Assembly: GCF_009914755.1 (NCBI RefSeq)
Contig: NC_060932.1
Length of the DNA stretch: 64,000 bases
From: the human T2T-CHM13v2.0 reference genome, Homo sapiens
Strand: one strand, 5' to 3'
Shown: piece after piece, positions 8,401 to 35,269 of the stretch
Position numbering within the stretch: the stretch's first letter is position 1
Layout of the letters: each line of letters begins with the position of its first letter
Program-made: the position numbers and the translations under genes
The notes under the pieces: generated by a model
The model's input: the letters and a program-made list of their open reading frames with translations, nothing else
Databases searched by the model: none
What the model was told of the DNA's origin: nothing

Positions 8401-8524
8401 CTCACAAATACAGTGCACACGGTAGAACGAGGCATTTTGAATCAGCTACACGTACAACTAATGGAGCTCAGAAGCTGTCAAGGATATAAGCAGTGCAACC
8501 CAAGACCTAAGAATCTTGATGTTG
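8401..8524 (+). CDS. SULF1: SULF1 coding exon
   Basis: Follows a 90-nt GT-AG intron; encodes [41 protein letters not shown]+G; donor G|GTAAGG; ends in phase 1. Confidence 0.97.
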
Positions 8525-9881: not shown

Positions 9882-10477
9882 GCCTGCAAAGACTTGGAAT
9901 CTCAACCAACCATTAGAGGCACTAGAAATATTATACCCAGATATTTCTCCCCAAAAGAACATAGGACTTTTATTGGTGGTGACATAACAACTCTACTTAG
10001 TGAAATCTGATCGAGTCCCTTAATGGTGAAATGACACACTGGGTGGAGCCAGTTATGCTGTTTCACTTCAAGCCGTCCTCTCCACCTTCCAGACTATTCC
10101 TATGGGAGATGATTATTAGCCCGTTTTTTTCCAATGTTTTGTCTAAAAATAACCAAAATTTAACTTTTCCTGAGAATTACATGGACTTCTGGAAGTACTT
10201 TTCCCACTGCTTTTAAGTGGGCTCTCCTCCCTTTAACACCCACCCATTTTTTTCATATGAACTCTTATTTTTTTTTTTATCTTAAACCTTTTCATTCATA
10301 GCTTTCAATCTGCATTTTGAACCTAATAGGAAATCTCTGTTGGGCTTCAGCACTGTCTGTATTTAACACCATGTGTTTCTTTCTAGGATTTAGATGTTGT
10401 GCATGAAAAACTATATAGTGAATGGTTTTATAAGTTCTAAAGCTAACAGAAATTACTCTTGTATTTTCCTATATCAG

Positions 10478-10511
10478 GAAATAAAGATGGAGGAAGCTAT
10501 GACCTACACAG
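10478..10511 (+). CDS. SULF1: SULF1 34-nt penultimate microexon
   Basis: TCAG| acceptor, CAG|GTATTC donor; encodes (G)NKDGGSYDLH(R) and joins the flanking exons in the canonical frame. Confidence 0.95.
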
Positions 10512-11132
10512 GTATTCACACTTTTTTATTCTTCTCAACAGCTTCTTCCCCAATAATTGCATGATCCAGTGGTTTCAACTAATTTCTGTTTCTTACCGTG
10601 TTGCACAGAGCAAAGCTGGGGGTGCATGCTTGTTCTAACAGCATTCTCCACTATGTTTTGTCATTGATCACAGAACTGTCATTTTGCTTTTAAATCAGCT
10701 CACTGTCCCATCAAGATGTTCCAGAGCATTTACTCACTCCCATGCTTGTTTGCTTGTTGGATGATGCTTTTAAGCATGGAATGATGTGAAGGAAAAAAAA
10801 CAGAATGGCCTTTGGGAGCCCCGGGAAAGGGTGGGAGATTTATTTTCTTTGTGGTACTTACACATTGATTTGGTGGGGGAGCTTCATGAAAATGGGTTGG
10901 AGATTTTTATTAAATATAGCATCAAAGGCACAAAATGACTAATGAGAATTTTAAGAGCACTGTAAGGCCGAAGTTGAAGGAAACAAGGAATTTCTTTGTT
11001 GATGTTCATTCATTAACTTTGGTGGTGAAAAGCAGCAGCCGTAAGATTCTGAAAGCTCTGCAGAGAGGTGGTGAATAACGAGAAGGTGCTGGGAGTTGGG
11101 GACAGAGTACCGGGAGTCAAGACACTAGTAAA

Positions 11133-11875: not shown

Positions 11876-14192
11876 AAAATTAACATCCCAAAGAATGTTG
11901 CTGTTCCTGGTACCCTGTTCGGCCCCTCTAACCTCCAGAGCTATGGTCTCAGATGCTTCCTTTTAGAGAGAAGGTCATTAGTCCACCAAGAAGCCAAATG
12001 ACAACAGGAAAGGTGATGGGAAGATGAAAACAAAGGAAGGTGGACTTTTGGGTATATGTTATAGCCATGTATGTATGTCTTCTTTTTTCTATTTTCTCTT
12101 GTTCTTCATCTTAACTGTCCTCAGTCTGCCCCACACCAACCCTGTGTCACTCCCAGCACACATAAGACAGAGCAGAAGACCCCATCCTTGAGCTGGTCTC
12201 CCCTGGGTATGGGCTGAGGTAACATCCCACACACCAGGACGATCTTCCCTGCCTCCCATCGGTCACATTAAGACATTTTCAAAGTGTAATATTATAAATG
12301 GACCTACCTCTAAATATTGACTTTACAGTTATTTTATGAGGCACTCAATTTATAGCTAAGGGTTTTTCAGTCTAGTGTCATGAAAGAGATAAAAGGGTGT
12401 TCACAGATTATTTAAGACATAAGGCTGGTCAGGGATGAGTCAGAGAGTCATTCTCCATGAAGTCACCCCTGGCCAACTTTGAAAGGAAGAATGTTTAACT
12501 GCACTTTGGGCGTAAATGACAAGCATCTGGGACCCTCCCCTTCCCTGATCCCTGCCACCACCACTCAATCGGCCAGATAATCAATTGTTTCTGAGGTCAC
12601 TTTCACATAATCTTGGCAACTTTAGTTGTTGAAAGCATGCATGCAGGGGCAACATGGTGTTACCTGTTGCTTTTTTTTTTCCCCTTCTAAGCTCCTTACC
12701 AGAGAGCAGATCTAAGGATACTGTGTAACTTGAAATAACCGGCATTTTCAGACTTTGCCATTTCATAGTCCATAGGGCAAGCCATCTTTCAGTGGATATC
12801 CACATGGTGGGCAGGAAATCTTGACATTGGTTTCTCAGAAAATATCTGCCTAGTCACACCTGGGAATTCACTAAACACCCAAATGCAGTGTTTGATGTGG
12901 CCTTACCTGCTCCTTGTATCTTATTGGATTGAATGAGAACAGATGCAAAACAAGTATGTACAGAAATGCCAGGAAAACTACTGTCTTCCAATGGGGTTCA
13001 ACAGTTCAAAGCCCTCCATTGATGGAGCCACTTAGGAGGTTTCAGTGTCTTAATTCTTTTAGATTTTGACAGTTTTAGAAAACTAAAAAAAAAAAAAACA
13101 AGTTTTTATCGTGAAATTTGATTACAAAAGATTTTGAGAGAAATGATAAGAACCAGATCTGAAGAATTTGAAATTTGAAAATTCAGCAGAGCATTTTTTT
13201 AAATGTATCTTGTACAAGATGAACTAAATAAATGTTTTTAAACTGACTTCTTTTTGGTGGATTTCAAAAGTTAACCTTCAGACTTATTTAGAGGGTTTTC
13301 ATAAAGCAAGTTTTTTTCTGTTGCTGCTCAATTTCTTTCTTTTCTTTTCTATCTTTTCTTTTCTCTTCCTTTTGCTGTTCCCTGTGTGTGAAGCAGGAGG
13401 GGCAGCTGAAATGCTTTGCATACTCACCCTGGTCATTTTCCAGTTAGGACAAGCTCAAAGGGAGAGCACAGCTCAGAAGGTGGCACTCATGACTCAGGAA
13501 ATAATTTGTGGCTCATTTGAAAGCAGCATCTTCTAAGTGTGTTGCAAAATAGAGAAAAATCAACAGGTTGTTGGGGTGTTTATTTTCCCCACTGCGTATG
13601 AAAGCTGGTGCTGCTGCCCTTTGATGGCCAAGAGGAGCTCCTGGCAGCCGTGGCCATGTGTCCCGGGGGTGTGTGGGGCAGGCGGTCAGTTCTTGGCAGC
13701 CTTCCTCTGGCAGGGCTGCTTCCTGATCCTTTGCTTCAAGCCTTCTGGGCTGTTAGACCACACAGAGCTCCACCCTCAGCAGCCACGCTGTAACCACATT
13801 GCTTTCACTGATTTTGACTCATCTCCCCCATAGTGACAGTGTGTGCCAAAGGTGGCTGTGGGTGACACAGCCGTGTGTTCGTGCTGTACGGCACTGTGGT
13901 CATGGGGGTGGACGCTGGAGCTCCTGATTAGTTTGAGTTCAAATCCCAGCCTCGCTGGTGGGCATGCTTAGAACAGACCCTGGCAGGGGCCAAGCCCCAG
14001 TAAGTGGTGGAGTCATTGGTAAAGGATAATGCTGAATGCAGGACATTTATATGGATGAAAGAGTATGGGGAAGGGAATTTCAGTGATATGAATTCCAAAG
14101 CGTGTTAGTATATTTTATAAGAAACAAAAAGGTATTCACCAGCACCACCAAACTCCATCATCAGTCACAGGCAACCAAGAATTGATCACTCT

Positions 14193-28158: not shown

Positions 28159-28189
28159 AGGACAGTTATGGGATGGATGGGAAGGTTAA
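28159..28189 (+). CDS. SULF1: SULF1 terminal exon, canonical coding part (R)GQLWDGWEG*
   Basis: Strong acceptor CTTCTCTCTTTTCACAG|; Sulf-family WDGWEG end; TAA at 28187-28189. Confidence 0.96.
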
Positions 28190-28976
28190 TCAGCCCCGTC
28201 TCACTGCAGACATCAACTGGCAAGGCCTAGAGGAGCTACACAGTGTGAATGAAAACATCTATGAGTACAGACAAAACTACAGACTTAGTCTGGTGGACTG
28301 GACTAATTACTTGAAGGATTTAGATAGAGTATTTGCACTGCTGAAGAGTCACTATGAGCAAAATAAAACAAATAAGACTCAAACTGCTCAAAGTGACGGG
28401 TTCTTGGTTGTCTCTGCTGAGCACGCTGTGTCAATGGAGATGGCCTCTGCTGACTCAGATGAAGACCCAAGGCATAAGGTTGGGAAAACACCTCATTTGA
28501 CCTTGCCAGCTGACCTTCAAACCCTGCATTTGAACCGACCAACATTAAGTCCAGAGAGTAAACTTGAATGGAATAACGACATTCCAGAAGTTAATCATTT
28601 GAATTCTGAACACTGGAGAAAAACCGAAAAATGGACGGGGCATGAAGAGACTAATCATCTGGAAACCGATTTCAGTGGCGATGGCATGACAGAGCTAGAG
28701 CTCGGGCCCAGCCCCAGGCTGCAGCCCATTCACAGGCACCCGAAAGAACTTCCCCAGTATGGTGGTCCTGGAAAGGACATTTTTGAAGATCAACTATATC
28801 TTCCTGTGCATTCCGATGGAATTTCAGTTCATCAGATGTTCACCATGGCCACCGCAGAACACCGAAGTAATTCCAGCATAGCGGGGAAGATGTTGACCAA
28901 GGTGGAGAAGAATCACGAAAAGGAGAAGTCACAGCACCTAGAAGGCAGCACCTCCTCTTCACTCTCCTCTGATTAG
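28159..28976 (+). CDS. SULF1: Alternative-frame SULF1 C-terminal extension (272 aa) reached by skipping the 34-nt exon
   Basis: G(8524)|AG GAC AGT TAT GGG ATG... reads EDSYG and then the 267-aa ORF 28173-28976, open to TAG; no repeat origin apparent. Confidence 0.7.
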
Positions 28977-30565
28977 ATGAAACTGTTACCTTACCCTAAA
29001 CACAGTATTTCTTTTTAACTTTTTTATTTGTAAACTAATAAAGGTAATCACAGCCACCAACATTCCAAGCTACCCTGGGTACCTTTGTGCAGTAGAAGCT
29101 AGTGAGCATGTGAGCAAGCGGTGTGCACACGGAGACTCATCGTTATAATTTACTATCTGCCAAGAGTAGAAAGAAAGGCTGGGGATATTTGGGTTGGCTT
29201 GGTTTTGATTTTTTGCTTGTTTGTTTGTTTTGTACTAAAACAGTATTATCTTTTGAATATCGTAGGGACATAAGTATATACATGTTATCCAATCAAGATG
29301 GCTAGAATGGTGCCTTTCTGAGTGTCTAAAACTTGACACCCCTGGTAAATCTTTCAACACACTTCCACTGCCTGCGTAATGAAGTTTTGATTCATTTTTA
29401 ACCACTGGAATTTTTCAATGCCGTCATTTTCAGTTAGATGATTTTGCACTTTGAGATTAAAATGCCATGTCTATTTGATTAGTCTTATTTTTTTATTTTT
29501 ACAGGCTTATCAGTCTCACTGTTGGCTGTCATTGTGACAAAGTCAAATAAACCCCCAAGGACGACACACAGTATGGATCACATATTGTTTGACATTAAGC
29601 TTTTGCCAGAAAATGTTGCATGTGTTTTACCTCGACTTGCTAAAATCGATTAGCAGAAAGGCATGGCTAATAATGTTGGTGGTGAAAATAAATAAATAAG
29701 TAAACAAAATGAAGATTGCCTGCTCTCTCTGTGCCTAGCCTCAAAGCGTTCATCATACATCATACCTTTAAGATTGCTATATTTTGGGTTATTTTCTTGA
29801 CAGGAGAAAAAGATCTAAAGATCTTTTATTTTCATCTTTTTTGGTTTTCTTGGCATGACTAAGAAGCTTAAATGTTGATAAAATATGACTAGTTTTGAAT
29901 TTACACCAAGAACTTCTCAATAAAAGAAAATCATGAATGCTCCACAATTTCAACATACCACAAGAGAAGTTAATTTCTTAACATTGTGTTCTATGATTAT
30001 TTGTAAGACCTTCACCAAGTTCTGATATCTTTTAAAGACATAGTTCAAAATTGCTTTTGAAAATCTGTATTCTTGAAAATATCCTTGTTGTGTATTAGGT
30101 TTTTAAATACCAGCTAAAGGATTACCTCACTGAGTCATCAGTACCCTCCTATTCAGCTCCCCAAGATGATGTGTTTTTGCTTACCCTAAGAGAGGTTTTC
30201 TTCTTATTTTTAGATAATTCAAGTGCTTAGATAAATTATGTTTTCTTTAAGTGTTTATGGTAAACTCTTTTAAAGAAAATTTAATATGTTATAGCTGAAT
30301 CTTTTTGGTAACTTTAAATCTTTATCATAGACTCTGTACATATGTTCAAATTAGCTGCTTGCCTGATGTGTGTATCATCGGTGGGATGACAGAACAAACA
30401 TATTTATGATCATGAATAATGTACTTTGTAAAAAGATTTCAAGTTATTAGGAAGCATACTCTGTTTTTTAATCATGTATAATATTCCATGATACTTTTAT
30501 AGAACAATTCTGGCTTCAGGAAAGTCTAGAAGCAATATTTCTTCAAATAAAAGGTGTTTAAACTT
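28190..30565 (+). other. SULF1: SULF1 3' UTR
   Basis: Repeat-free sequence after the stop, AT-rich beyond ~28976; several AATAAA, distal one at 30546-30551 followed by a T-rich element. Confidence 0.85.
30546..30551 (+). terminator. SULF1: SULF1 distal polyadenylation signal
   Basis: AATAAA with downstream TTTTTTCTGTTT. Confidence 0.75.
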
Positions 30566-33591: not shown

Positions 33592-34138
33592 TAGTTCAAC
33601 TAAAGACATCTTTGCTTGGCTCCAGGACCTACCCCTGCAAAGCAGCTACTTTGATTTCTAAAGTAGCAGCGCACCTCTCGGTGTTACCATTTTGACAAGA
33701 ATACAGCTAGAACAGCTTGATCCTTGGCAGACTTGCCCTTTCTTCAGTGCTTAGGATCTTAGCCATTCCAGCAGGCGAAAGAACAGTTTTTGCTTCTGAT
33801 TTATATTGGTATTTTAAATTGGAACTGCATCAAACTTTGACGTTTCAATTCAAAAGTGAGCACTGAATATCGATCTCCCTGCTTTCCAAAGTCTTTGTGC
33901 AATTAAAAATGTTTTTTGGCTCCCATACACTGAACCAACAGAGGTCATCTCTGCCTAGCTGGCAATTTTGCAAAGAAGAGCGGAACTAGATGCTTTTTAA
34001 CAGCTCTTAAAACACTGAGGTTGTACCAAGTCTGGTGCTAAAGCAAGGACGACAAGTGACCATATTCATAACCTTTCCCCCTCCTCATTTCTTAAAAAGA
34101 AACATTTTCTAATGTGCCTATTCAAAAAGCCCAATACC

Positions 34139-35269
34139 CAAGGACGTCATGTCTAAAACACCAAAAACAATGGCCACAAAAGCCAAAATTGACAAATGGG
34201 ATCTAATTGAACTAAAGAGCTTCTGCACAGCAAAAGAAACTACCATCAGAGTGAACAGACAACCTACAGAATGGGAGAAAATTTTTGCAATCTACTCATC
34301 TGACAAAGGGCTAATATCCAGAATCTATAATGAACTCAAACAAATTTACAAGAAAAAAACAAACAACCCCATCAACAAGTGGGCGAAGGATATGAACAGA
34401 CACTTCTCAAAAGAAGACATTTATGCAGCCAAAAGACACATGAAAAAATGCTCATCATCACTGGCCATCAGAGAAATGCAAATCAAAACCACAATGACAT
34501 ACCATCTCACACCAGTTAGAATGGCAATCATTAAAAAGTCAGGAAACAACAGGTGCTGGAGAGGATGTGGAGAAATAGGAACACTTTTACACTGTTGGTG
34601 GGACTGTAAACTAGTTCAACCATGGTGGAAGACAGTGTGGCGATTCCTCAGGGATCTAGAACTAGAAATACCATTTGACTCAGCCATCTCATTACTGGGT
34701 ATATACCCAAAGGATTATAAATCATGCTGCTATAAAGACACATGCACACGTATGTTTATTGCGGCACTATTCACAATAGCAAAGACTTGGAACCAACCCA
34801 AATGTCCGGCAATGATAGACTGGATTAAGAAAATGTGGCACATATACACCATGGAATACTATGCAGCCATAAAAAATGATGAGTTCATGTCCTTTGTAGG
34901 GACATGGATGAAGCTGGAAACCATCATTCTCAGCAAACTATCCCAAGGACAAAAAACCAAACACCGCATGTTCTCACTCATAGGTGGGAATTGAACAATG
35001 AGAACACATGGACACAGGAAGGGGAACATCAGACACCGGGGCCTGTTGTGGGGTGGGGGGAGGGGGGAGGGATAGCATTAGGAGATATACCTAATGTTAA
35101 ATGATGAATTAATGGGTGCAGCACACCAACATGGCACATGTATGCATATGTAACTAACCTGCACATTGTGCACATGTACCCTAAAACTTAAAGTATAATA
35201 AAAAATAAATAAATAAATAAATAAAAATAAAATGTTAAGAGAGAGAGAAAAAAATAAATAAATAAAAAT
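34139..35269 (+). mobile_element. 5'-truncated L1PA element
   Basis: ORF2 C-terminal 281 aa including the CCHC region; 3' UTR; TSD AAAAAGCCCAATACC at 34124-34138 and 35270-35284. Confidence 0.96.

What the first reader, a model, noticed from the sequence alone, without database searches (positions are those of the whole stretch)
28173..28976. The alternative tail looks like a secreted proteoglycan-type module
Seen: an acidic-flanked Ser-Gly, ETDF-SG-DGMTELE (Ser codon 28674-28676); tandem N-glycan sequons NKT-NKT (28362-28379) and NSS; four S-x-E motifs (SAE, SME, SDE, SPE); Tyr in acidic context (ENIYEY). An amphipathic helix-like block (DINWQGLEEL...DWTNYLKDLDRVFALLKSHY) precedes a disordered region, and there is no transmembrane segment. 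Established: acidic-flanked SG is the xylosyltransferase acceptor for glycosaminoglycan chains, S-x-E is the FAM20C motif, and Sulfs bind heparan sulfate through a basic hydrophilic domain. Inference: a polyanionic or GAG-bearing tail could autoinhibit Sulf-1 or release it from the cell surface, tuning its range.
Basis: inference. Interest (0 to 1): 0.75.

Follow-up and report, generated by a model that had tools for sequence, protein, structure and literature searches.

The report
Hidden proteoglycan-like tail of SULF1
Skipping one small exon of human SULF1 turns its annotated 3' untranslated region into a 272-amino-acid tail kept from sharks to humans, which likely carries long sugar chains that would loosen the enzyme from the cell surface; a common disease-linked 'non-coding' variant changes one predicted attachment site.

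Summary
The frame is real: skipping the 34-nt exon 22 swaps SULF1's last 21 residues for a 272-residue tail. It is already catalogued in human and mouse RNA-seq, with one mouse peptide (PMC7392665 tables), and found from sharks to primates. Conservation sorts the claims. Fish tails add more acidic Gly-Ser-Gly sites. Not kept: the S-x-E motifs and NSS. Best reading (0.5): a splice switch makes a glycosaminoglycan-bearing SULF1, like SULF2, probably released more from cells. No chain has been shown; autoinhibition is unsupported. New lead: published primers place rs6990375, the top hit of a breast-cancer survival GWAS (P=6e-9, not replicated in a small cohort) read as a microRNA-site variant, at 28950, where it changes Ser-Ala to Ser-Thr at the second site. 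The isoform is known; the proteoglycan and missense readings were not found in print.

The parts
8401..8524 (+). SULF1 exon 21; its donor joins exon 23 directly in the long isoform
   Evidence: annotation given; in-silico splice gives the 272-aa tail
10478..10511 (+). 34-nt exon 22, the switch: included = 21-aa short end, skipped = long tail; non-consensus donor
   Evidence: skipping supported by RNA-seq in human and mouse (PMC7392665 Table S1)
10400..10628 (+). Three RBFOX-type UGCAUG motifs (10400, 10558, 10623) and one QKI-type motif (10578) round exon 22; candidate regulators
   Evidence: 3 in 600 nt vs 0.15 per 300 nt expected; chosen among six motifs scanned, motif labels recalled, untested
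28159..28189 (+). Dual-coded start of exon 23 (short-form end and first ten residues of the tail); conservation here is not independent evidence
28159..28976 (+). Long-frame coding region, 272-aa acidic Cys-free tail, annotated as 3'UTR in the selected transcript
28191..28358 (+). Conserved N-block (tail residues 11-66), about as conserved as the heparan-sulfate-binding hydrophilic domain
   Evidence: 54-75% vs 63-86% identity from monkey to shark/opossum
28290..28391 (+). Predicted amphipathic helix (residues 44-77); partner unknown
   Evidence: pLDDT 85-95 over residues 41-70; moment 0.5; pattern in 84/89
28362..28379 (+). Tandem N-glycan sequons; some sequon in this zone in 54/64 species
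28572..28589 (+). Conserved short motif NNDIPE, function unknown
   Evidence: Asn 0.99, Pro 1.0
28671..28700 (+). Site B: F-S-G-[N/D]-G-x-x-E-L-E, candidate glycosaminoglycan attachment Ser at 28674-28676
   Evidence: SG in 85/89; mostly 3-5 acidic residues in the 11 upstream vs 1.85 expected
28732..28732 (+). rs3802278 (G>A): Arg>His in the long frame; window has A; poorly conserved column
   Evidence: extension primer of PMC4869662 maps to 28733-28747
28776..28805 (+). Conserved acidic motif DIFEDQxYLP with Tyr; candidate tyrosine-sulfation or binding motif (inference)
   Evidence: 0.83-0.92 at most columns
28941..28952 (+). Site D: E-G-S-[A/G], second candidate attachment Ser at 28947-28949
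   Evidence: 79/89; EGSA 68, EGSG 10, DGSA 1
28950..28950 (+). rs6990375 (G>A): Ala>Thr right after the site D Ser; window has the A (Thr) allele
   Evidence: published primers give a 227-bp amplicon 28852-29078; only G at 28950 yields the published 99+128 HhaI fragments

Best explanation
Skipping the 34-nt exon 22 shifts SULF1 into a second frame of its last exon and gives a vertebrate-wide long isoform whose acidic, mostly unstructured tail likely receives one or two glycosaminoglycan chains (probably chondroitin sulfate) at conserved Ser-Gly/Ser-Ala sites, which would compete with the enzyme's basic domain for cell-surface heparan sulfate and let it spread further. Shown: the frame, the splice event, conservation of tail, helix and both sites. 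Inferred: xylosylation, chain type, release from the surface. SULF1 would thus be a splice-switched, part-time proteoglycan, reaching by splicing what SULF2 has built into its hydrophilic domain.
For: Exon skip seen in human and mouse RNA-seq, one mouse brain peptide from the helix (PMC7392665 Tables S1, S2). Tail found in all jawed-vertebrate groups sampled, median 273 aa, net charge -11 to -34. Of 206 columns past residue 65 only 13 are 90% conserved (median 0.48); six of these are the core of sites B and D. Site D alternates Ser-Ala and Ser-Gly (68 and 10 of 89), the two acceptor types named in PMC10424144. A third acidic SG site is kept in birds 12/12, amphibians 8/8, sharks 7/7, ray-finned fish 8/8; 13 of 13 fish-like tails examined carry 1-3 Gly-Ser-Gly, mostly acid-flanked. 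Site B shares D-F-S-G with the proven SULF2 site; CS on engineered SULF1 raised the medium/cell ratio 4-8 fold (PMC13405426). Hydrophilic domain charge +31 vs tail -13 in the monkey orthologue.
Against: No glycopeptide or gel evidence for this tail in the papers searched. D-F-S-G without a dense upstream acidic cluster got no CS in SULF1, and about 2% in SULF2; human site B has 4 acidic residues in the 11 upstream (SULF2 6, the failing swap 2), site D mostly 2-3. Motifs alone over-predict proteoglycans (PMC8418075). Residues round site B (Asn, Glu) are conserved beyond what xylosylation should need, which suits a protein-binding motif. The third site is lost in primates, laurasiatheres and afrotheres; three whales lack site D; a Thr allele at about 30% frequency is tolerated in people. 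Protein evidence is one peptide with internal uncut sites. The species set was found by similarity to the tail, so losses cannot appear. Isoform share per tissue unknown.
Confidence: 0.5

Rival explanations
1. The tail is functional but unglycanated in mammals: it acts as a bare polyanion plus short binding motifs (helix, NNDIPE, FSGNG-ELE, DIFEDQxYLP) that sort, tether or cluster the enzyme.
For: The helix block is the largest conserved element; four short motifs are spaced along the tail; human site B has a thinner acidic cluster than the SULF2 sequon.
Against: Ser-Ala/Ser-Gly alternation at site D and repeated Gly-Ser-Gly gains in fish fit acceptor selection better than a fixed binding surface. 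No Pfam (best E 0.21) or PDB match for any motif.
Confidence: 0.3
2. The tail is cut off after secretion or in the Golgi and works as a separate granin-like acidic (glyco)peptide, leaving an enzyme that lacks the short end.
For: Acidic, Cys-free, unstructured with one amphipathic helix; several prohormones/granins are CS proteoglycans.
Against: No furin-type site in the human tail (only one Arg-Lys pair), none conserved in the alignment.
Confidence: 0.08
3. It is a generic frameshift tail that destabilises the protein and so lowers SULF1 output.
For: This is the rule reported for 3'UTR-encoded tails (PMC7392665).
Against: That rule concerns proline-rich, poorly conserved tails degraded by the proteasome; this tail has 5% Pro, enters the secretory path and keeps motifs across jawed vertebrates. 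I saw no stability data for Sulf1 in the parts read.
Confidence: 0.08
4. The frame is incidental: conserved 3'UTR RNA elements, with gene models that mis-call it as coding.
For: Most orthologue records are predicted models; no codon-level test was possible without orthologous DNA.
Against: About 270 open codons in 89 species with in-frame gaps and conservative changes; RNA-seq junction and a peptide.
Confidence: 0.03

Closest known systems
Human SULF2 as a CS/DS proteoglycan enzyme (Ser583; bioRxiv 2021.01.04.425218; PMC13405426)
   Same: Extracellular 6-O-endosulfatase with an acidic D-F-S-G site in a disordered region; chain changes activity and secretion.
   Different: SULF2's site is constitutive and inside the hydrophilic domain; 0 of 161 long Sulf-1 homologues has such a site in the core. 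Here the sites lie in an optional C-terminal tail set by splicing, have fewer upstream acids, and are unproven. Both papers call SULF1 chain-free; residue numbers indicate the standard form, and the preprint text has no 'splice' or 'splicing'.
Splicing-accessible coding 3'UTRs (Preussner 2020, PMC7392665)
   Same: SULF1 is a listed member: penultimate-exon skip, 21 to 272 aa, human and mouse.
   Different: Class is described as proline-rich, destabilising, often species-specific; this tail is low in Pro, secreted and conserved to sharks. No function for Sulf1 in the parts read. SULF2 is absent from the tables.
Part-time CS proteoglycans found by glycoproteomics (prohormones, granins; PMC8418075, PMC10424144)
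   Same: Acidic S-G/S-A sites in disordered regions of secreted proteins.
   Different: Those are defined by site-specific mass spectrometry; SULF1 was not named as one in the passages seen.

Membership tests
Proteoglycan (CS/DS/HS core protein) | Covalent glycosaminoglycan on Ser, shown by lyase shift or linkage glycopeptide | not testable with these tools
   No data found
Proteoglycan (CS/DS/HS core protein) | Ser followed by Gly or Ala | tested here: met
   Site B 85/89; site D 79/89, but the window's allele has Thr
Proteoglycan (CS/DS/HS core protein) | Acidic residues near the Ser, mainly upstream | tested here: inconclusive
   Site B 3-5 of 11 in 83/89 (expected 1.85); site D 2-3 in 66/84; below SULF2's 6
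Proteoglycan (CS/DS/HS core protein) | Site in a disordered region of a secreted protein | tested here: met
   Coil, pLDDT about 45-55 at both sites (low confidence is only a proxy for disorder); secretion follows from fusion to SULF1
SULF2-type CS sequon (PMC13405426) | Five acidic residues in positions -11 to -5 plus D-F-S-G | tested here: not met
   Human site B has D-F-S-G but 2 acidic residues in -11 to -5
Splicing-accessible coding 3'UTR | [quoted passage not shown] | tested here: met
Splicing-accessible coding 3'UTR | Proline-rich, destabilising tail (typical, not required) | tested here: not met
   5.2% Pro; stability untested
FAM20C substrate cluster | Enriched or conserved S-x-E | tested here: not met
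   P=0.20; 9-33 of 64 per site; single sites may still be phosphorylated

The most novel reading that the evidence does not exclude
SULF1 has a splice-switched proteoglycan form conserved across jawed vertebrates, and the common allele rs6990375-A acts not through microRNA binding but by turning Ser-Ala into Ser-Thr at its C-terminal attachment site, removing a chain and changing how far the enzyme spreads; this would explain the reported breast-cancer survival and reproductive associations.
Probability: 0.08. Interest if true: 0.85.

Novelty: new variant of a known kind. Interest (0 to 1): 0.62.

Why it matters
The field treats 'SULF2 carries a chain, SULF1 does not' as a main difference between the two enzymes, from constructs of the standard form. 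If the long isoform is glycanated, that contrast is isoform-dependent, and a 34-nt exon would set the range of an enzyme that edits heparan sulfate for Wnt, FGF and other signals, which could account for conflicting results. Independently of glycanation, two common SNPs studied as 3'UTR variants are amino-acid changes in a conserved coding frame, one of them a genome-wide significant hit; that is directly testable with two constructs.

Tried and rejected
Full-length AlphaFold model of the monkey long isoform failed (mean pLDDT 32), so nothing can be said on tail-core packing; no fold search was run on it. Two-copy complex prediction of residues 10-80 gave no answer; not used either way. Pfam: only a chance hit, E 0.21; PDB sequences: none at E 10. 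Atlas look-alike search gave no result. Search for full-length carriers of the divergent tail P0194 found none among 380 candidates (weak evidence). I first read those divergent tails as SULF2 from their first residues, then dropped that argument because alpaca Sulf-1 starts the same way. Rejected: a stand-alone protein from the Met at 28173 (no hydrophobic signal, all long homologues are fused to the sulfatase); S-x-E enrichment; NSS as a conserved sequon. Paper searches that found no study of the long isoform's function or glycanation: (listing of 9 papers naming rs6990375): the passages read in five of them do not treat it as missense. The library lacks most subscription journals; older fish and frog Sulf1 cloning papers may describe the long form (recalled, unchecked). 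bioRxiv supplements are closed; glycoproteomics supplements were not read and could list SULF1 peptides. No dN/dS, isoform fractions or population data could be computed.

Full report
Observation. Every motif named is at the stated place. In the human sequence alone the counts match shuffles: SG 1 vs 1.44, sequons P=0.45, S-x-E P=0.20, acid-flanked SG P=0.08.

What it is. Joining exon 21 to exon 23, without the 34-nt exon 22, replaces the last 21 residues with 272. Skipping exon 21 alone also enters this frame; skipping both does not. The event is published as a table row: PMC7392665 lists it for human and mouse as annotated and RNA-seq supported, as an orthologous pair, with one 19-residue peptide from the helix in one mouse brain lysate (I read passages, Results parts 1-2 of 3, matching supplement rows and part 1 of 2 of the supplement PDF). 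Methods list Sulf1 splice primers, but I saw no result. A search with the tail gave 100 hits, Sulf-1 models from primates to skates; a coelacanth query gave 143, 120 listed, adding lizards, sturgeons, gar and carps. The tail is thus at least as old as jawed vertebrates.

Which features are kept. I aligned one sequence per species: 63 of the 100 first hits and then 25 of the 65 new ones, chosen for spread (89 with human). Redundant isoforms were dropped; the set is ascertained by similarity to the tail. Helix pattern 84/89; AlphaFold gives a helix at 44-77 with pLDDT 85-95 at its core and coil beyond. Residues 11-66 are 54-75% identical from monkey to shark or opossum, close to the hydrophilic domain's 63-86%. 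Past residue 65 the median column conservation is 0.48 and 13 of 206 columns reach 0.9; six are the Ser-Gly-Asn of site B and Glu-Gly-Ser of site D. Site B SG 85/89 (misses: kangaroo rat, vole, Komodo dragon, caecilian). Site D 79/89, with Ala (69) or Gly (10) after the Ser; misses include three whales, pangolin and this window. A third acidic SG, in 49/89, is absent from primates, laurasiatheres and afrotheres. Thirteen fish-like unnamed tails all carry 1-3 Gly-Ser-Gly. The four S-x-E are in 26, 9, 33 and 30 of 64, NSS in 11; a sequon near NKT-NKT in 54. Species are related, so these counts are not independent events.

Mechanism. Xylosyltransferases choose Ser before Gly or Ala, near acids, in disordered regions (PMC10424144, passages). 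Conservation peaking on two such sites, with Ala/Gly exchange at one, is what selection for an acceptor would leave. SULF2 carries CS on a D-F-S-G site; CS put onto SULF1 raised its medium/cell ratio 4-8 fold and its activity (PMC13405426, preprint, parts 1-3 of 8). The other study found that removing SULF2's chain promotes activity and saw no chain on SULF1 in HEK293 (bioRxiv 2021.01.04.425218, abstract and passages). So release has support by analogy and autoinhibition is unsettled. Against: D-F-S-G without five upstream acids failed in SULF1; human site B has two in that zone and four in all 11 upstream positions, plus three downstream; site D is weaker. Motifs over-predict (PMC8418075, passages). 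I put a chain on at least one human site at about 0.6, and chain plus release at 0.5.

Variants. The window differs from the sequence in the paper's table at two codons. Published primers identify them: rs3802278 at 28732 (Arg>His) and rs6990375 at 28950 (Ala>Thr after the site D Ser); of two possible A-to-G changes in the 227-bp amplicon only 28950 gives the published 99+128 fragments (PMC4475770, PMC4869662, PMC3025876, passages and primer tables). rs6990375 was the top variant for ER-positive breast-cancer survival (P=6.35e-9), read as a 3'UTR microRNA variant (PMC6965101, passages). It did not replicate in 2,404 patients with 107 events (P=0.76, allele frequency 0.29; PMC8943134, passages and Table 1), and it is linked to rs3802278 (r2 0.87) and rs3087714. 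That it is missense in the long frame is shown; that this matters is a long shot.

Regulation. Exon 22 has a non-consensus donor and three UGCAUG motifs within 300 nt against 0.15 expected per 300 nt (one of six motifs scanned, labels recalled). This suggests tissue-regulated skipping; untested.

Verdict. Real, conserved, catalogued but apparently unstudied isoform. It works, most likely, like SULF2's chain-bearing region; membership among proteoglycans is untested, and it does not meet the strict SULF2 sequon. New variant of a known kind; interest 0.62.

Noticed in passing
proteins P0190, P0194, P0203: Divergent tails; P0190 and P0203 are 34-45% identical to all jawed-vertebrate Sulf-1 N-blocks alike (which are 46-93% among themselves): a paralogue (SULF2?) or jawless outgroup, which would date the dual frame earlier. 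Full-length carriers not found.
   Followed up: partly
window 8401-8524: Skipping exon 21 (124 nt) alone also reaches the long frame while deleting part of the C-terminal sulfatase region; a panda model has this form.
   Followed up: no
window 28245-28253 and 28191-28205: Two N-glycan sequons common in other vertebrates (44/64 and 22/64) are absent in human.
   Followed up: partly
whale orthologues P0030, P0038, P0042: The tail stops early and lacks site D in the three cetaceans aligned; several rodents have a degenerate helix.
   Followed up: no
window 58101-59489 (-) and 34113-34991 (+): The two longest open frames in the window read like LINE-1 ORF2 remnants inside masked repeats (label recalled).
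   Followed up: no
window 11894-12068: Annotated alternative exon; spliced in after exon 21 or 22 it gives an early stop.
   Followed up: no
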